IMG/VR virus record: IMGVR_UViG_2698536573_000006
Length of the DNA stretch: 34,476 nt
Reading direction: 5' to 3' (one strand)
Source of the DNA: a virus
Lineage: Duplodnaviria > Heunggongvirae > Uroviricota > Caudoviricetes
Made by a program: the position numbers and the translations under genes. This document shows, piece by piece, positions 1 through 33,313 of the stretch (position 1 is the stretch's first letter; each line of letters begins with the position of its first letter). The notes under the pieces are model-generated. The model ran no database searches and was not told where the DNA came from. It worked only from the letters and a program-made list of their open reading frames with translations.

Positions 1-1005
1 TTAATCCCCCGTGGACACTGCGTGGACACTTACGCCACCTTTCAGCGGATTAAGGGCCACCGCATCCTGCAGGTAATCCGGTGCAAAATGCGCATATGCC
101 ATTGTTTGCTGAATGGTTGCGTGACCAAGAATCTTCTGAAGCGCAATAATGTTTCCTCCGTTCATCACAAAATGGCTGGCGAACGTATGCCGCAGCACAT
201 GTGCAGCCTGGCCTTTTGGTAAATCGGGCTTAACTCTTTTCAGCGCCAGGCAGAATTCCCGGTACTTCACCTCAAACAAGCCGCCTGTTTCTCTGGTTTT
301 GATCGCCTCACAAACTGCCTGCGAAATTGGCACTGTTCTCTTCCGGCCATTTTTGGTTTCAAGAAACGTTACACGGTTATGAACTATCTGTTCACCACGA
401 AGCTTACAAGCTTCACTCCAGCGCGCCCCTGTGCTTAAACACAAAAGCGCAACACGCCAGTAGTCGCCCTCCAGTGTATCGAGCAATAGCGCCACTTCCT
501 TCTGTGACAGGAACGCCATTTCTCGTGGAGATACATAAAGAATAGAAATTCCCCTTACTGGATGTTCTGCATCCCAAAGACCTATTTTTTTCAGCACGGT
601 AAACATTCCGGATAACCGATTCATGTACCTGTTAGCAGATGACGGTTTCAATCCTTCAGCTATCTTTTGAGAACGCCACGCGATAATTTTCAGCTTATCA
701 AGATCCACAGCCTGCATATCAGCGCCAAGCTCATTGATTATGTTGCGCAGTTGTTTTCGGTCTTCTTCCGCCTTACGCCTGTGCTGGCCGTGATACATCC
801 ACCACAACTCAAGCAAATCATTTAGCGTTCGACGATCACGGTAGCCCTGTATATATTCCCGCTTTTCAGCGTTCGCCATGATGTAGCGTTCAGTGGCCAC
901 CGCTACCGATTTTTTGTCAAATACCTTACGCACGCGCTTTCCCTTGCGTCCGTTCGGCCTGATGTCCAGCAAATAACGACCATCTTCGAGCTTCTTAATC
1001 GACAT
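1..1005 (-). CDS. int: tyrosine integrase, P2 Int family
   Basis: ORF 1..1020; translation from MSIKKLEDGRYLLDIRPNGRKG to HAVSTGD aligns along its length with my recollection of P2 Int (ARWSEA, HVLRHTFASHF, LGH, YAHFAPDYLQDA motifs). Start chosen at ATG 1005, which follows a GGAGGG Shine-Dalgarno. Confidence 0.9.
   Translation of the reverse strand: MSIKKLEDGRYLLDIRPNGRKGKRVRKVFDKKSVAVATERYIMANAEKREYIQGYRDRRTLNDLLELWWMYHGQHRRKAEEDRKQLRNIINELGADMQAVDLDKLKIIAWRSQKIAEGLKPSSANRYMNRLSGMFTVLKKIGLWDAEHPVRGISILYVSPREMAFLSQKEVALLLDTLEGDYWRVALLCLSTGARWSEACKLRGEQIVHNRVTFLETKNGRKRTVPISQAVCEAIKTRETGGLFEVKYREFCLALKRVKPDLPKGQAAHVLRHTFASHFVMNGGNIIALQKILGHATIQQTMAYAHFAPDYLQDAVALNPLKGGVSVHAVSTGD
11..28. repeat. 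putative attL core (direct repeat with 33296-33313)
   Basis: gtggAcactgcgtggaca here versus gtggTcactgcgtggaca at 33296-33313, with a 13-nt exact core cactgcgtggaca. It lies in the last codons of int, as expected for a P2-type attP core at the int 3' end. Confidence 0.45.
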
Positions 1006-1101
1006 TACGAAGCCCTCCAATGAACCGCTCTACAATTTCTCCAGCCTCTTTCCAGCAATAATCAGACCAGACAAAAAGCAGGTCTAACCAGTTTTCTGGC
1101 C

Positions 1102-21330: not shown

Positions 21331-23015
21331 TGGCCACAGTGGATTACGTGGATAACAAACTGAAAGAGCATGAACAGTCACGACGTCACCCGGATGCCTC
21401 GCTGACCGCAAAAGGCTTTGTTCAACTCAGTAGCGCCACTAACAGCGTGTCTGAAACACAAGCTGCAACGCCGAAAGCAGTAAAGGCCGCGTATGACCTT
21501 GCTAACGGGAAATATACTGCGCAGGATGCCAGCACAACGCGAAAAGGCCTTGTCCAGCTCAGTAGCGCCACCAACAGCGATTCTGAAACGCTGGCGGCAA
21601 CACCAAAGGCGGTAAAGGCAGCATATGACCTTGCTAACGGGAAATATACCGCACAGGACGCTACCACAGCGCGAAAAGGTCTTATCCAGCTCAGCAGTGC
21701 GACTAACAGCACTTCCGAGTCACTGGCGGCAACGCCAAAAGCCGTTAAGGCCGCGTATGAGCTGGCTAACGGGAAATACACCGCACAGGATGCAACGACA
21801 GCACAGAAAGGGATAGTTCAGCTTAGCAACGCGACCAACAGCACATCTGAAACGCTGGCGGCAACGCCAAAGGCGGTAAAGGCAGCATATGACCTTGCTA
21901 ACGGGAAATATACCGCACAGGACGCTACCACAGCGCGAAAAGGTCTTGTCCAGCTCAGTAGTGCAACCAACAGCACGTCTGAAACGCTTGCCGCGACCCC
22001 GAAAGCGGTTAAAGCTGCTAATGACAATGCAAACGGGCGTGTGCCCTCTGGACGTAAGGTTAATGGCAAACCACTGACCAATGATGTCAATGTTACATCA
22101 CAGGATATTTTTAACGGTCAGAGTATTAATATTGGTGCAAACCAGAATCTGGATAATTACAAAACGCCGGGGCTGTACCATCAACCCCTGAATGCCTATA
22201 CAAGTGCAGCGCTGAAATACCCAGAGAATCTTGCCGGTACACTGGTTGTGCTTAAAAATGCCGGGATAACACAGATTTACTATGTGTATAACACATCCAG
22301 AAGCTATACCCGCAGCCAGTACTCAACGGGTGACTGGACAGCATGGACGCCGCAGGATTCATTTCCTGTAGGTGCGGCGATTCCGTGGCCTTCTGATTCA
22401 GTGCCTACAGGCTATGCCGTTATGCAGGGGCAGACTTTTGATAAAACAACCTATCCCCTGCTTGCAGCAGCTTATCCCTCTGGTGTACTCCCCGATATGC
22501 GTGGCTGGACAATCAAGGGCAAACCCGCCAGTGGTCGGGACGTATTGTCTCTGGAACAGGATGGCATTAAATCGCACACCCACAGCGCCAGCGCATCCAA
22601 TACGGATTTGGGTACGAAAACCACATCTTCGTTTGATTACGGTACTAAATCAACGAATAACACAGGTGCACATACCCACAATGTATCTGGTACTGCAAAT
22701 AGTGCTGGCGCACATACTCATACCGTGCCATTAAGGAGACCAAACAGTGGCGGTATGAATTTCGACTGGCTGGATGGTGCATCAAGTGGCACGGTGGTAG
22801 GGAATGGAACTGTGCCTTCTTCTGGCGCACATACCCACTCAGTATCAGGCACCGCTACAAGTGCTGGGGCACATGCACACACTGTTGGTATTGGCGCTCA
22901 TACGCACTCTGTTGCGATTGGTTCACATGGACATACCATCACCGTTAACGCTGCTGGTAACGCGGAAAACACCGTTAAAAACATCGCATTTAATTATATT
23001 GTGAGGCTTGCATAA
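21324..23015 (+). CDS. H: tail fibre protein (P2 gpH-like), lacking the baseplate-proximal N-terminal domain
   Basis: From ATG 21324: [32 protein letters not shown] corresponds to an internal segment of P2 H ([33 protein letters not shown]). Followed by tandem repeats and a C-terminal GAHTH-repeat tip. Confidence 0.8.
21411..22040 (+). repeat. tandem 132-bp coding repeats (about 4.7 copies) inside the tail fibre gene
   Basis: Repeated 44-aa unit [44 protein letters not shown]; the nucleotide copies are near-identical. Confidence 0.8.
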
Positions 23016-31214: not shown

Positions 31215-31475
31215 ATGTTCCGTTGTCCGCTTTGTGGCGCATCTGCCCGTATCCGCACCAGTCGTCCGGAAAATGATTCAAACACCGTGCGGCAAAAGTA
31301 TTACCAGTGTAACAATCTGGAATGCGGCGTATGCTTCTCAACACTGGAAGCTTTCCATAAATTCACATCGAAACACGCCTCCGGCGTTCACTCATCAGAA
31401 GGTATCCCGTGGCATGAGCTGCCAGCTTCACACAGGGGAAACAATCAGATGAGTTTGCCTTTACCTCAGAATTAA
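31215..31475 (+). CDS. ogr: late gene activator Ogr (zinc finger)
   Basis: MFRCPLCGASARIRTSR...YYQCNNLECGVCF matches the P2 Ogr Cys4 zinc-finger N-terminus (MFHCPLCQHAAHARTSR...YHQCQNVNC); AGGGAGG Shine-Dalgarno. Confidence 0.8.
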   Translation: MFRCPLCGASARIRTSRPENDSNTVRQKYYQCNNLECGVCFSTLEAFHKFTSKHASGVHSSEGIPWHELPASHRGNNQMSLPLPQN

Positions 31476-31665
31476 CAGGCAGAATTGCCGGAGTAACAAA
31501 AAAGCGATAGATTACGTGCGGGTGCCTTTCGGCTGATGGTCGGAGGGAATACCCGAAGGCCGGATGTGGAAAGGCCCCGGAAAACATATCTGTTTAACCG
31601 AGGCCCTAACCGCATTACCTTGACAAGTGAAAGGTTAGCGCCTCTCCGGAAAAGGAGCAAGTGCT

Positions 31666-31806
31666 ATGTCGCAAAAATCGCTTACGGCCATCACGTTCTG
31701 CGTGACGGCAATCCTCATCATCTGGATGCTGCACGGTTCGCTGTGTGAAATACGGATGAGTTTCTGGGGAGCGGAGTTTGCGGCGTTCTTACAGTGTAAG
31801 CAGTAA
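31666..31806 (+). CDS. Hok/Gef-family type I toxin candidate
   Basis: 46-aa ORF MSQKSLTAITFCVTAILIIWMLHGSLCEIRMSFWGAEFAAFLQCKQ: one TM helix followed by SLCEIR and AAF motifs typical of Hok/HokA. AAAGGAG Shine-Dalgarno. An overlapping upstream frame (31536..31748) could be mok-like. Confidence 0.6.
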   Translation: MSQKSLTAITFCVTAILIIWMLHGSLCEIRMSFWGAEFAAFLQCKQ

Positions 31807-31983
31807 GGAAACCGCGACGGGGGAGCAATCCCCCGTCAATCAGTTGCCAGAGTAAGGTCGATAAGGCATCCTGTCTCACTCTATACCAGCTAATCAATTG
31901 ACACATATCAATAAAAAGTCTGATAAAATCAAAATGTTTTGTTACAAACGTCAGCTAGTAGAGAGCCAAAGGAGGCAGATTAT

Positions 31984-32316
31984 ATGGCATTAATCAAATG
32001 TCCTGAATGCCAGAAAGAGGTGATCGATTCAGTATTGTCTTGCCCTGCTTGTGGCAAACAACTGAAAAAACTTAAACGTTCATTTTTTGGAGAACTCATT
32101 AAGTATTTTTTCATATTATTTAATATTTTTATAATCTACACGATTTGTGTTGGGCTAAGAGAGGTGGGTGAAATAATAAACAACGCCACATCCGATGCCG
32201 AAAAAGCCGGTACAGTTATTGGTACGGGCTTAGGTTTAATTGCTATTGGAGGCTTATGGGTTATTTGCAATATCATTATCGGAAATTTAGTATTTCTTAC
32301 TAAACCAAAGGGATAA
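31984..32316 (+). CDS. zinc-ribbon membrane protein (cargo)
   Basis: ORF 31939..32316; start at ATG 31984 after AGGAGG. N-terminal CPECQ...CPACGK zinc ribbon followed by two TM helices; AT-rich. Confidence 0.55.
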   Translation: MALIKCPECQKEVIDSVLSCPACGKQLKKLKRSFFGELIKYFFILFNIFIIYTICVGLREVGEIINNATSDAEKAGTVIGTGLGLIAIGGLWVICNIIIGNLVFLTKPKG

Positions 32317-32320
32317 CAAA

Positions 32321-33231
32321 ATGAAAAATATGATTATTTCTATAGGTGCATCATTTATATCAATTAGTGTGCTACCTGCTCACGCAGCAACTGAGCATAA
32401 TAACTTTAAGTCATCACTCCAGTGCCGAGCAATAGAAAATAATAAAGAAAGACTTTCTTGTTATGATAAGTCAATACAACCGACTCGAACGACAGTTGCT
32501 GAAAAATTCGAAAGCAGAGATCAATGCCCTGATGAGAAAGATGATGACAGACGTTTATCTTGTTATGACCGTTTTTTTCTCCAACATTTACTCCGCCTGT
32601 AAGCTCAAAATCTAAAGCGAAACAGCTAGTAACAACAGAGGCTCAGCAACCAAATCTTTCTGAGATATCTAAATGCCGAGCAGAAAACGATAAAGAAACT
32701 AGAGTAAACTGCTACGATAAACCATTTCCACAGGAAAAAGTTGCGCAATCTAAATCAAAATTAGAGAAAGCCACAGACACAGGAAAATGGCACACATCCA
32801 TTACTACATCGCCAATTGATGATTCGAAAAATGTAATTTTATCGTTAGAAAGTGATGATTATATAAGAACTCCATTTGGAGAAGCGGTTACCCCTACTCT
32901 GTTTATAGCTTGCCGAGAAAAGAAAACCGAAGTATTTCTTAATTGGGATGTATATTTAGGCCTTGAACAAACCAGCATGCTGTATCGCCTTGATAAACAG
33001 AAAGCAGTTGAGCGAAACTGGCTAGTATCTACAGATACAAAGGCTGTTTTTTATAAAGGCAATGACATTAACTTCATCAGAAAACTAGCCAACTCAAACA
33101 AAATGTATGCAAAAATAACCCCTTATAATGAAAGCCCTGTAAGTGCAACTTTCAATTTAAACGGCCTGTCAACCACGCTAAAACCGCTTCAAGAAGCCTG
33201 TAACTGGAAACAGTATAAATCATGCGGCTAA
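32321..33231 (+). pseudogene. secreted protein with repeated RLxCYD(K/R) Cys motifs, reading frame broken at a T7 tract
   Basis: ORF 32321..32602 (signal peptide MKNMIISIGASFISISVLPAHA; motifs RLSCYDKS, RLSCYDRFF) stops shortly after the T7 run at 32572-32578. The -1 frame is open from 32569 to 33231 and continues the same motif (RVNCYDKPF). One extra T or a -1 slip would give a continuous protein of about 300 aa. Confidence 0.5.
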
Positions 33232-33295: not shown

Positions 33296-33313
33296 GTGGT
33301 CACTGCGTGGACA
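33296..33313. repeat. putative attR core (direct repeat with 11-28)
   Basis: gtggtcactgcgtggaca shares 17 of 18 positions with 11-28; lies between ogr-side cargo and the first host-like gene. Confidence 0.45.

What the first reader, a model, noticed from the sequence alone, without database searches (positions are those of the whole stretch)
31480..31810. Hok/Sok-like type I toxin-antitoxin candidate between ogr and the right-end cargo
A 46-aa ORF (31666-31806) has the Hok hallmark: one TM helix followed by SLCEIR and an AAF motif near the C-terminus, closely resembling my recollection of HokA/Hok. An overlapping upstream reading frame (31536-31748) is placed like mok, and the GC-rich, structure-prone leader (31500-31660) is where fold-back elements and an antisense Sok RNA would lie. 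A type I TA at the prophage end could stabilise the prophage or contribute to abortive infection.
Basis: partly seen in the sequence, partly recalled or inferred. Interest (0 to 1): 0.6.

Follow-up and report, generated by a model that had tools for sequence, protein, structure and literature searches.

The report
Known Hok toxin–antitoxin module, prophage-borne
A 46-residue membrane-toxin gene of the Hok family, with its antisense-RNA control elements, sits near the end of a P2-like prophage; it is real, but it is already annotated, common in E. coli, and a preprint reports the identical peptide among the toxic Hok homologs it tested.

Summary
Window 31666-31806 (+) encodes a 46-aa Hok/Gef toxin (Pfam PF01848, 29.9 bits, above the cut-off of 22).

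A 20-locus alignment supports the parts with compensatory base changes:
- a 5'-3' fold-back (tac-fbi);
- an alternative fold after 3' trimming;
- a hairpin that is the target and mirror image of a Sok-like antisense RNA.

The antisense promoter (minus strand, 31660-31632) has the same -10 hexamer that was mutated experimentally in sokW.

This may therefore be a mok-less variant.

Nothing else is new:
- RefSeq annotates the identical protein (WP_000078916.1) as "Hok/Gef family protein".
- The locus matches 1750 of 5426 complete E. coli genomes.
- P2-like phages annotate it "MokW-like host killing".
- A 2025-26 preprint lists the identical peptide (72_1621) among 45 homologs tested, and it is not one of the three reported non-toxic.

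Its biological role here (prophage stabilisation, lysis aid or phage exclusion) is untested.

The parts
31485..31513 (+). Putative hok promoter: -35 TTGCCG (31485-31490), 17-nt spacer, -10 TAGATT (31508-31513). It begins 10 nt after the ogr stop codon.
   Evidence: Read from the sequence. Homology between copies in unrelated contexts (P2-like, lambdoid, genomic island) starts at the -35 ATTGCC, and the -10 is kept as TA[GAC]A[TG]T. At 8 of 12 consensus matches it is below the threshold of the consensus scan.
31520..31871 (+). Inferred full-length hok mRNA (about 352 nt), from GGGUGCC at the 5' end to the fold-back element at the 3' end. The ends are inferred, not mapped.
   Evidence: The Rfam hok-leader model starts at 31520. 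The MFE closes the 5' end on the 3' end with z -6.2. In the consensus structure over 20 loci, 96.9% of cells are paired and 21 pairs show compensatory changes, against 8 or fewer in slid controls.
31520..31532 (+). tac-like 5' element (GGGUGCCUUUCGG). It pairs either with the fbi (31858-31871) or, after 3' trimming, with 31569-31578.
   Evidence: Helices 1 and 2 have four pairs with compensatory changes. The alternative helix shows that alignment columns 10 and 11 covary with both partners.
31536..31748 (+). It is probably not a functional mok.
   Evidence: It is present in the window. In 6 of 10 diverse loci and 23 of 84 near-identical loci no upstream ORF reads across the hok ribosome-binding site, and its stop position varies. 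The same test finds the mok AUG at -57 in hokW and in an R1-like locus.
31570..31625 (-). Predicted Sok-like antisense RNA of about 56 nt. It has a 5' single-stranded tail (31625 to about 31606), a GC-rich hairpin (31605 to 31573) and a short U tract. The ends are approximate (about 2 nt at the 5' end, up to about 7 nt at the 3' end).
   Evidence: It is placed by homology to the sokW annotated in phage 933W, which starts 7 nt after its -10 and ends after GGGGCUUUU. The minus-strand fold is -31.4 kcal/mol, z -4.9. The hairpin pairs covary (columns 54/89 change GC to AU in 5 loci, and 56/87 in 1 locus). No transcript data are available.
31632..31660 (-). Sok-like promoter on the minus strand: -35 TTGCTC (31660 to 31655), 17-nt spacer, -10 TAACCT (31637 to 31632). 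The -35 overlaps the hok Shine-Dalgarno sequence.
   Evidence: The block AGGTTAGCGCCTC is almost invariant in 20 loci. The same TAACCT hexamer is the sokW -10. The published promoter-less mutant changes TAGGTTAG to CCGGCTCG and loses antitoxin activity (primer YO-421 against wild type; PMC8621323). It is below the threshold of the consensus scan.
31618..31630 (+). ucb-like leader segment (CCUUGACAAGUGA). It overlaps the target of the Sok 5' tail and pairs with 31840-31852 in the full-length fold.
   Evidence: Helix 7 has 10 pairs, 4 with compensatory changes, and 93% of cells paired.
31652..31657 (+). hok Shine-Dalgarno sequence AAGGAG, 8 nt before the AUG. In the full-length fold it lies within the stem-loop closed by 31636-31641 pairing with 31661-31666.
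   Evidence: Sequence. Helix 8 is 99.2% paired. Pair partners are listed.
31666..31806 (+). hok coding sequence, 46 aa, a Hok/Gef family toxin.
   Evidence: RefSeq annotates the identical protein as WP_000078916.1, 'Hok/Gef family protein'. The identical peptide is entry 72_1621, cloned as LRP137 and tested for toxicity, in bioRxiv 10.1101/2025.08.07.668861.
31816..31837 (+). 3' GC-rich hairpin (GACGGGGGA...UCCCCCGUC). It is the likely stop point for 3' exonucleolytic trimming.
   Evidence: Helix 15 has 9 pairs, 5 with compensatory changes. The terminator scan detected it as a stem.
31840..31852 (+). dcb-like 3' segment that pairs with the leader at 31618-31630.
   Evidence: Helix 7; coordinates.
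31858..31871 (+). fbi-like fold-back element (UCGAUAAGGCAUCC), complementary to the mRNA 5' end.
   Evidence: Helices 1 and 2. The compensatory pattern is E. coli UCGG:UCGA/CCGA against Salmonella CGAC:GUCG. Module homology between different genomic contexts ends just after it.

Best explanation
This is a hok/sok-type type I toxin-antitoxin module carried as cargo at the ogr end of a P2-like prophage.

Shown by sequence comparison:
- The + strand carries a small promoter followed by an mRNA of about 352 nt that encodes a 46-aa Hok-family inner-membrane toxin.
- The mRNA 5' end (tac) pairs with its 3' end (fbi), and a leader segment pairs with a 3' segment. The hok ribosome-binding site lies within a local stem-loop.
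- An alternative fold is conserved. In it the 5' end pairs internally and the leader forms a long hairpin that presents the region complementary to the antisense RNA.
- A minus-strand promoter homologous to the validated sokW promoter would drive an antisense RNA of about 56 nt, complementary to leader positions 31570-31625.

Inferred by analogy with R1 hok/sok and hokW-sokW:
- The full-length mRNA is a stable, inert reservoir.
- Slow 3' trimming removes the fbi and triggers refolding.
- The unstable Sok-like RNA binds the refolded mRNA, and the duplex is cut by RNase III, so no toxin is made while the locus is transcribed.
- When antisense transcription stops (loss of the DNA, host shut-off, rifampicin) or antisense is out-titrated, Hok is translated and depolarises the membrane.

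Unlike R1 and hokW, this subfamily has no conserved mok leader ORF. Sok therefore most likely acts through mRNA decay and structure switching rather than by blocking mok translation.

The biological role is not shown. My ranking is: selfish stabilisation of the prophage end and its cargo, about 0.4; help with lysis on induction, as for hokW, about 0.25; exclusion of other phages, about 0.2; no measurable role, the remainder.
For: Protein:
- Pfam HOK_GEF is above its gathering score, and PHROG 251 gives E 1.3e-22.
- The conserved Hok residues and their spacing are present. dN/dS is 0.12-0.45.
- The identical peptide 72_1621 was cloned and tested. The preprint reports 42 of 45 homologs toxic, and the three non-toxic ones are other sequences.

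RNA:
- Rfam RF01794 hits 31520-31679 (+) with E 1.3e-8. That model is hok-sense, as the canonical loci show.
- The full-length fold has z -6.2 with 5'-3' closure.
- In the 20-locus consensus structure 96.9% of cells are paired and 21 pairs have compensatory changes, against 1-8 in slid controls. No shuffle of 500 reaches the observed value for four of the five measures.
- The alternative fold is 96.2% paired, and the same tac columns covary with both partners.
- In diverged pairs the leader is as conserved as the coding sequence or more so, for example 86% against 62%.

Antisense:
- The -10 is identical to the sokW -10, whose mutation abolished antitoxin activity.
- The antisense hairpin has z -4.9.

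Context:
- The locus lies between ogr and AT-rich cargo, inside a candidate att repeat. The same slot is used in phages P88, P884B11, 500465-2 and Shae_phiSM.
- hokW-sokW is an experimentally shown type I TA in a prophage (PMC8621323).
Against: - There are no transcript, RACE or RNA-seq data for either RNA, so all ends are inferred.
- Both promoters are weak by consensus (8 of 12 and 6 of 12 matches), and the consensus scan missed them.
- The Rfam score is 45.8, below the gathering score of 59. The NCBIfam HokA and Hok-family models are far below their cut-offs.
- The mok ORF considered essential for hok translation in R1 (PMC9841398) is not conserved here. It is therefore unclear how hok is translated.
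- My thermodynamic test of ribosome-site accessibility gave the expected direction but a small effect: median unpaired probability 0.41 full-length, 0.45 truncated, 0.39 with the Sok target masked.
- The 20 aligned loci are related to each other, and several are tandem paralogs, so cell counts overstate the number of independent events.
- The toxicity report is a preprint. I read that this clone was toxic from the text's list of exceptions, not from a figure.
Confidence: 0.88

Rival explanations
1. It is a canonical three-gene hok-mok-sok locus. The 31536-31748 frame, perhaps starting at TTG 31620 inside the Sok target, is translated as mok. Sok would then control hok indirectly by blocking that translation, as in plasmid R1.
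For: The frame is open in the window and in 61 of 84 loci with identical or near-identical Hok. It reads across the hok ribosome-binding site and ends inside hok, as R1 mok does. R1 mok is also out of frame with hok. A vestigial GAGG is kept where R1 and hokW have the mok Shine-Dalgarno sequence.
Against: In 6 of 10 diverse loci and 23 of 84 close relatives no ATG, GTG or TTG ORF in any frame crosses the hok ribosome-binding site. These include the viable phage P88, whose Hok is 98% identical. None of the 20 loci has a start codon 5-13 nt after the conserved GAGG. TTG 31620 has no purine-rich ribosome-binding site upstream. ATG 31536 lies inside the 5' stem. The ORF's stop position varies between +80 and +131.
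Confidence: 0.15
2. It is a decayed, silent hok remnant, like several chromosomal hok loci of E. coli K-12, and does nothing.
For: Many chromosomal hok copies are known to be inactivated (Pedersen and Gerdes 1999, from my own knowledge). The promoters are weak by consensus. One Salmonella copy (L098) has lost the 5' promoter and tac region.
Against: In the window every element is intact, and each is conserved or changes in a compensatory way across 20 loci. The ORF is always exactly 46 codons and is under purifying selection. The identical peptide is reported toxic. The module is carried by phage genomes deposited as complete, such as P88.
Confidence: 0.05
3. Role: a lysis helper. On prophage induction the Sok-like RNA is lost or out-titrated, possibly by read-through from the co-directional late operon D-ogr. 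Hok then damages the membrane and speeds phage release, as shown for hokW-sokW in Sp5.
For: hokW-sokW advances growth arrest by about 40 min and doubles Sp5 release (PMC8621323). No + strand terminator was detected between ogr and hok, and the hok -35 starts 10 nt after the ogr stop codon. The same module also sits in late-region slots of lambdoid phages, after lom or gpJ.
Against: hokW belongs to a different Hok subfamily and has a mok. P2-like prophages are generally not SOS-inducible (my own knowledge). A read-through transcript would lack the exact 5' end needed for tac pairing, so its behaviour cannot be predicted. There are no data for this locus.
Confidence: 0.25
4. Role: abortive infection. 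Host transcription shut-off by a superinfecting lytic phage stops Sok synthesis, so Hok kills the cell before the phage matures. This protects lysogens.
For: [quoted passage not shown] Prophages often carry defence cargo, and hok genes are about four-fold enriched in prophages.
Against: The protein has no PADLOC model hit. The Hok catalogue found no enrichment of hok genes near defence systems (section title; discussion). There are no data for this subfamily.
Confidence: 0.2

Closest known systems
Hok 'cluster 72' of the Escalera-Maurer et al. catalogue (bioRxiv 10.1101/2025.08.07.668861), annotated in RefSeq as WP_000078916.1 'Hok/Gef family protein' and in phage records as 'MokW-like host killing' (PHROG 251)
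   Same: It is the identical 46-aa peptide (entry 72_1621). It belongs to a high-abundance cluster and was cloned and tested for toxicity. The DNA is identical in many ETEC and other E. coli genomes. P2-like phages P88, P884B11 and 500465-2 use the same slot.
   Different: Nothing differs at the protein level. The catalogue analysed only coding sequences and explicitly did not define Sok, mok or the mRNA structure. The RNA anatomy given here is therefore not in that work.
hokW-mokW-sokW of Stx2 phages 933W and Sp5 (PMC8621323)
   Same: It is a prophage-borne Hok toxin with an antisense RNA. The antisense -10 is the same (TAACCT), as is the layout in which the antisense -35 overlaps the hok Shine-Dalgarno sequence. 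The 5' end GGGUGC, the fold-back architecture and the Rfam RF01794 match are shared.
   Different: HokW is 51 aa and belongs to the HokC/HokD (Gef/RelF) type, whereas this Hok is 46 aa. hokW has an in-frame mok AUG 57 nt upstream, which is absent here. The Rfam score is 113.5 bits for hokW and 45.8 here. 933W also carries a separate copy of the present subfamily after lom, 82% identical in nucleotides and unannotated in that record.
hok/mok/sok of plasmid R1 (parB), the paradigm type I TA
   Same: The architecture is the same: tac-fbi 5'-3' closure, activation by 3' trimming, ucb/dcb-like long-range pairing, a short hairpin antisense RNA with a single-stranded 5' tail, and the SLCEIR and AAF motifs in the toxin.
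   Different: R1 Hok is 52 aa. R1 needs mok translation up to the hok Shine-Dalgarno sequence (PMC9841398), and no conserved mok exists here. The host element is a prophage rather than a plasmid. The NCBIfam Hok-family model scores 21.6 bits against a cut-off of 73.
HokA of E. coli K-12
   Same: It is the best-scoring NCBIfam model (NF007290, E 2.2e-8), and it shares a ...AAFL.C... C-terminus (the HokA sequence is from my own memory).
   Different: The score of 34 bits is far below the equivalog cut-off of 89, so this is not HokA. The catalogue places HokA in a different 60% cluster, 93 rather than 72.
AapA1/IsoA1 of Helicobacter pylori (from my own knowledge: Arnion et al. 2017)
   Same: It works similarly. 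The toxin mRNA is locked by a 5'-3' interaction and activated by 3' trimming. The antisense RNA then binds and RNase III cuts the duplex, with no leader ORF involved. This is the mechanism I infer for a mok-less hok.
   Different: The toxin family and sequences are unrelated. The comparison is by mechanism only and was not tested here.

Membership tests
Hok/Gef toxin family (Pfam PF01848) | Profile match at or above the curated gathering score | tested here: met
   29.9 bits against a cut-off of 22, E 4.1e-07, covering residues 7-44 and profile positions 5-42 of 42. PHROG 251 gives E 1.3e-22.
Hok/Gef toxin family (Pfam PF01848) | A peptide of about 50 aa with one N-terminal transmembrane helix and the conserved C..T, LCE and E positions | tested here: met
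   The peptide is 46 aa. The hydrophobic stretch covers residues 4-27. C12, T14, L26, C27, E28 and E37 match logo positions C16, T18, L30, C31, E32 and E41 with identical spacing.
Hok/Gef toxin family (Pfam PF01848) | Toxic to E. coli on overexpression | not testable with these tools
   From the literature only. [quoted passage not shown]
NCBIfam HokA equivalog (NF007290) and Hok-family subfamily (NF007279) | Score at or above the curated cut-off | tested here: not met
   34.0 bits against 89, and 21.6 bits against 73. It is therefore neither HokA nor the R1-type subfamily. This explains the generic RefSeq name.
hok/sok-type type I TA locus | Match to the hok leader / Sok region RNA family (Rfam RF01794) at gathering score | tested here: not met
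   45.8 bits, below 59, with E 1.3e-8 and a full-length match to model positions 1-157. Canonical loci score 113.5 and 87.2 bits. It is a homologous but diverged leader.
hok/sok-type type I TA locus | mRNA 5' end (tac) pairs with the 3' end (fbi) | tested here: met
   Pairs 31520-26:31865-71 and 31529-32:31858-61. All four pairs of the second helix show compensatory changes. The structure is present in the MFE and in the RNAalifold consensus.
hok/sok-type type I TA locus | A conserved alternative fold of the 3'-trimmed mRNA that presents the antisense target | tested here: met
   tac pairs with 31569-78, and 31600-11 pairs with 31633-44. 96.2% of cells are paired, and the tac columns covary with both partners. 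The processing itself was not observed.
hok/sok-type type I TA locus | A cis-encoded short antisense RNA gene (own promoter, hairpin, 5' tail) opposite the leader | tested here: met
   This is met at the sequence level only. The -35 and -10 lie at 31660-31632 (-), and the -10 is identical to the experimentally validated sokW -10. The hairpin has z -4.9 and covaries.
hok/sok-type type I TA locus | The antisense transcript is actually made and neutralises the toxin | not testable with these tools
   No expression data are available. This needs Northern blots or dRNA-seq, and promoter mutants.
Canonical three-component hok-mok-sok (R1, hokW, hokC) | A conserved leader ORF (mok) that starts in the Sok target and reads up to the hok Shine-Dalgarno sequence | tested here: not met
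   No such ORF exists in 6 of 10 diverse loci or in 23 of 84 close loci. None of the 20 loci has a start codon at the homologous position. As a positive control, the same test finds ATG at -57 in hokW and in an R1-like locus.

The most novel reading that the evidence does not exclude
The 46-aa Hok subfamily (catalogue cluster 72), which matches about a third of complete E. coli genomes and occurs in P2-like and Stx phages, may be a naturally mok-less hok/sok system. Hok translation would not depend on a leader ORF. The Sok-like RNA would act only by triggering RNase III decay, or by releasing the anti-Shine-Dalgarno segment (31633-31644) from the target hairpin so that it re-closes the hok ribosome-binding site. 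If so, the textbook requirement for mok would be a feature of some Hok lineages only. The published delta-hokW-sokW phenotype in Sp5 would also have been measured with a second, unrecognised hok module still present.
Probability: 0.45. Interest if true: 0.35.

Novelty: already known. Interest (0 to 1): 0.18.

Why it matters
As a discovery it matters little. The gene is already annotated in RefSeq, has a PHROG family, and is catalogued and tested in a recent preprint. Its mechanism class has been a textbook paradigm since the 1980s.

It has some practical value:
- Current annotation covers only the 141-nt coding sequence. The promoter, the Sok-like RNA, and the tac, fbi and alternative-fold elements that make it a working module are unannotated. 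They extend 65 nt beyond the stop codon.
- The module appears to lack mok. This is a testable exception to the standard hok model.
- The same subfamily sits unannotated after lom in the older 933W and VT2-Sakai (Sp5) records, next to the studied hokW-sokW. It could mask phenotypes in single-deletion experiments.
- It lies at prophage ends and survives in prophage remnants and tandem arrays. This fits a role in stabilising prophage DNA and neighbouring cargo, which affects how easily such prophages can be cured.

Tried and rejected
- The sigma-70 consensus scan of 31380-32000 found no promoter on either strand. Both promoters fall below its threshold of 9 of 12 matches, so I assigned them by homology and conservation instead.
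With an alignment, genome contigs returned only 4 loci, two of them probably contaminated non-enterobacterial assemblies. The viral-contig scan returned 80 loci, all with 100% identical Hok. These were useful only for the mok-frame test.
- I first assumed that mok must be in frame with hok, as in hokW and an R1-like variant. I dropped this after PMC9841398 showed that R1 mok is out of frame. The test was redefined as 'any ORF with a start codon in the leader that crosses the hok Shine-Dalgarno sequence'.
- A 3-codon mini-ORF, GTG AAA GGT TAG (31627-31638), was considered as a coupling ORF. I rejected it because several loci have GTA, GTT or GAG at that position.
- The thermodynamic test of whether 3' trimming opens the hok ribosome-binding site and Sok masking closes it gave the expected direction in most loci. 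The shifts were only 0.04-0.06 in unpaired probability, which is too weak to count as evidence.
- Literature searches for 'MokW-like' or WP_000078916, and for hok together with P2-like and ogr, returned nothing relevant.
- PADLOC has no model that matches the protein.
Full report
**1. What is in the sequence**

Window 31666-31806 (+) is an ATG-initiated 46-codon ORF that translates to MSQKSLTAITFCVTAILIIWMLHGSLCEIRMSFWGAEFAAFLQCKQ.
- An AAGGAG Shine-Dalgarno sequence lies 8 nt upstream, at 31652-31657.
- The overlapping 70-codon ORF 31536-31748 also exists.
- ogr (Pfam Ogr_Delta, 52 bits) ends at 31475. A zinc-ribbon membrane protein and a TagO/VasI-like gene follow.

**2. Is it more than chance?**

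Yes.
- Pfam HOK_GEF scores 29.9 bits, above the gathering score of 22, with E 4e-7. PHROG 251 'MokW-like host killing' gives E 1.3e-22 over the full length.
- All seven positions that a recent survey finds conserved in more than 80% of Hok peptides are present with the right spacing.
- Homologs down to about 48% protein identity are always exactly 46 codons long. dN/dS is 0.12-0.45.

**3. It is already annotated and catalogued**

- The 385-nt locus is 100% identical in many E. coli genomes, for example ETEC O6:H16. There RefSeq calls the product 'Hok/Gef family protein', WP_000078916.1.
- Matches occur in 1750 of 5426 complete E. coli genomes.
- P2-like phages of the genus Xuanwuvirus (P88, P884B11, 500465-2, Chuche, Citrobacter phage Shae_phiSM) carry it in the same slot. 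Several annotate it 'MokW-like host killing'.
- The protein search found only 'Hok/Gef family protein' relatives, in Escherichia, Shigella, Salmonella and one Klebsiella oxytoca.
- The identical peptide is entry 72_1621 in Table S2 of Escalera-Maurer et al. (bioRxiv 10.1101/2025.08.07.668861). It belongs to high-abundance cluster 72 and was cloned as LRP137. The text says 42 of 45 tested homologs were toxic and names three other sequences as the non-toxic ones.

**4. Relation to known loci**

- The nucleotide sequence aligns end to end with an R1-type hok/sok locus and with an 82%-identical copy in Stx phages.
- That Stx-phage copy lies after lom (933W 45491-45841) and is unannotated in the 933W record. 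It is distinct from the annotated hokW/mokW/sokW at 58460-58734. So 933W, and by the search hits also VT2-Sakai (Sp5), carry two hok modules.
- hokW-sokW has been shown experimentally to be a type I TA. Its antitoxin activity partly requires RNase III and Hfq. It speeds lysis and doubles phage release after induction (PMC8621323).
- NCBIfam places the window protein nearest HokA but far below the cut-off (34 bits against 89). It is also far below the R1-type 'Hok family' model (21.6 bits against 73). It is a separate subfamily.

**5. RNA anatomy**

Promoter and 5' end:
- A promoter-like pair, TTGCCG-17 nt-TAGATT (31485-31513), precedes GGGUGCC at 31520. The Rfam model RF01794 starts there (E 1.3e-8; 45.8 bits, below the gathering score of 59).
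- RF01794 is named 'sok' but is modelled on the hok-sense strand. At the canonical hokW locus it hits the hokW strand, not the annotated sokW strand. In an R1-like locus the hit ends at the hok AUG. The + strand hit in the window is therefore what is expected for a hok leader.

Full-length fold:
- Folding 31520-31876 gives -151 kcal/mol, z = -6.2, with the 5' end paired to the 3' end.
- I aligned 20 loci from the predicted 5' end to the 3' fold-back element. They come from E. coli P2-like and lambdoid prophages, an O157 island, and prophage-flanked or unassigned loci in Salmonella and Klebsiella oxytoca.
- RNAalifold predicts 80 pairs. On this structure 96.9% of cells are paired and 21 pairs carry compensatory changes. 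Structures slid by 1-3 columns give 35-41% paired and 1-8 such pairs. No shuffle of 500 reaches the observed value for four of the five measures.

Helices in window coordinates:

| Helix | Coordinates | Note |
|---|---|---|
| tac-fbi | 31520-26:31865-71 and 31529-32:31858-61 | E. coli UCGG:UCGA/CCGA against Salmonella CGAC:GUCG |
| Sok-target hairpin | 31573-79:31599-31605 | |
| ucb/dcb-like long-range helix | 31618-30:31840-52 | |
| Hairpin enclosing the Shine-Dalgarno sequence and start codon | 31636-41:31661-66 | |
| Start region with distal coding region | 31667-74:31778-85 | |
| 3' hairpin | 31816-24:31829-37 | |

Alternative fold:
- Removing the 3' end after the hairpin changes the MFE. 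The 5' end then pairs with 31569-78, and 31600-11 pairs with 31633-44. This makes a long hairpin whose tip carries the region complementary to the antisense 5' tail.
- These alternative helices are 96.2% paired across the 20 loci. The same two tac columns covary with both the fbi and the internal partner. This three-way covariation is the signature of the hok two-state mRNA.
- In diverged pairs the non-coding leader is as conserved as the coding sequence or more so, for example 86% against 62%.
- Homology between copies in unrelated genomic contexts begins at the -35 and ends just after the fbi. The module therefore spans about 31485-31871.

**6. The antisense RNA**

- On the minus strand, TTGCTC (31660-31655), a 17-nt spacer and TAACCT (31637-31632) lie inside a nearly invariant block.
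- The hokW locus has the same TAACCT at the same relative place, and the annotated sokW starts 7 nt downstream of it.
- The published 'promoter-less' sokW mutant changes exactly this hexamer: primer YO-421 carries CCGGCTCG where the wild type has TAGGTTAG. That mutant lost protection.
- By analogy the window's Sok-like RNA starts near 31625, forms the hairpin 31605-31573 and ends after a short U tract near 31570, giving about 56 nt. The fold is -31.4 kcal/mol, z -4.9.
- No expression data exist here, so this RNA is inferred, not shown.

**7. mok**

- In R1, translation of mok up to the hok Shine-Dalgarno sequence is required for Hok synthesis (PMC9841398). hokW and an R1-like variant have a mok AUG 57 nt upstream of hok.
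Its possible starts are ATG -130, GTG -100 and TTG -46.
- In 6 of 10 diverse homologs, including phage P88, no ORF in any frame crosses the Shine-Dalgarno sequence. The same is true of 23 of 84 loci whose Hok is identical or nearly identical.
- None of the 20 aligned loci has ATG, GTG or TTG 5-13 nt after the conserved GAGG, which is where R1 and hokW have the mok start.
A lineage-specific leader ORF in the window's own clade cannot be excluded.

**8. Mechanism**

Shown: the toxin family, both mRNA folds, and the antisense promoter and hairpin at the sequence level.

Inferred from R1 and hokW:
- The full-length mRNA is inert.
- 3' trimming triggers refolding.
- The Sok-like RNA binds the exposed target and RNase III destroys the mRNA.
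- When antisense synthesis stops, Hok is made and kills the cell.

Without mok, one possible switch is this. The anti-Shine-Dalgarno segment 31633-44 is held in the target hairpin in the active form. Sok binding releases it, and it re-closes the ribosome-binding site. An ensemble calculation over the 20 loci gave the expected direction but small effects: median unpaired probability 0.41 full-length, 0.45 truncated, 0.39 with the Sok target masked. I give this step low weight.

**9. Context and role**

- An 18-nt direct repeat at 11-28 and 33296-33313 is a plausible att core. If so, hok lies about 1.5 kb inside the right prophage end, followed by AT-rich cargo (35-37% GC). In strain E41-1 it is the last gene before the host gene serS.
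- The module also persists in a prophage-end remnant on a 146-kb ETEC plasmid, in an O157 island next to transposase fragments, and as two or three tandem copies in Salmonella, three of them directly after ogr in P2-like prophages.
- This pattern fits a selfish stabilising element. A lysis-helper role as for hokW, and phage exclusion, are alternatives. None of these was tested here.

**10. Verdict**

The finding is correct in substance, apart from mok and the right-hand boundary. It describes an already annotated, widespread and experimentally sampled Hok module. The one mildly novel point is the apparent absence of mok in this subfamily.

Noticed in passing
L004 1521-1875 (= phage 933W 45491-45841); L006 8460-8734: Stx2 phage 933W carries two hok modules, and VT2-Sakai (Sp5) matches in the same way. 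One is the studied hokW/mokW/sokW. The other is a cluster-72 copy just after lom, with no feature annotated in these older records. The published delta-hokW-sokW phenotypes were therefore probably measured with the second module still present.
   Followed up: partly
L101 1505-2641 (also L102, L103, L104): Salmonella loci carry two or three tandem copies of the whole 46-aa hok module about 495 bp apart. Each copy has its own leader and fbi. In L101 and L102 the three copies follow ogr directly in a P2-like prophage.
   Followed up: partly
L105 (plasmid p120899_146, NZ_CP025917.1 about 127384-134768): A 146-kb ETEC plasmid keeps a fragment of the prophage right end (partial gpD, ogr, the identical hok locus, the zinc-ribbon gene and the split TagO) beside a group II intron. 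Similar plasmids occur in other ETEC strains.
   Followed up: partly
window 32321-33213, around 32575: The TagO/VasI-like cargo gene has a 1-nt deletion relative to the intact 297-aa copy in strain FDN-9 (L012). This splits it into a 93-aa ORF and a downstream frame. RefSeq annotates two ORFs in the identical genomes.
   Followed up: partly
window 11-28 and 33296-33313: An 18-nt direct repeat (GTGGACACTGCGTGGACA and GTGGTCACTGCGTGGACA) lies 33,285 bp apart. One copy is at the 3' end of the 339-aa ORF at the left edge of the window (1-1020, probably the integrase; not checked against a profile). The other is just before flk. It is a plausible attL/attR core of the P2-like prophage.
   Followed up: no
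window 31872-33213: The cargo downstream of hok is AT-rich (35-37% GC against 51% for the window). It encodes a zinc-ribbon membrane protein (31984-32316; PHROG 6586, function unknown) with no PADLOC hit.
   Followed up: partly
window 31520-31679; L006 8610-8784; L003 332-503: Rfam RF01794 is labelled 'sok antitoxin', but it matches the hok-sense strand from the mRNA 5' end to the hok AUG. The strand of a hit therefore does not give the strand of Sok.
   Followed up: yes
L098 2300-2740: A Salmonella copy has an intact 46-aa ORF, Sok promoter block and fbi, but its hok promoter and tac region is replaced by unrelated sequence. It is probably a silenced copy.
   Followed up: no
L007 2545-2896: In strain AVS0756 the same ogr-flk prophage slot holds a module whose leader is 86% identical to the window but whose coding sequence is only 62% identical. 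This suggests recombination within the module. The cargo after it is com and a DNA methyltransferase rather than TagO.
   Followed up: no
L014, L015: Contigs assigned to a Planococcaceae MAG and to a Vagococcus isolate encode a 98%-identical Hok. This is most likely enterobacterial contamination of those assemblies.
   Followed up: no
window 21410-22069: Four tandem copies of a 132-nt unit (72-83% identity) lie here, with further short repeats at 22665-22885.
   Followed up: no
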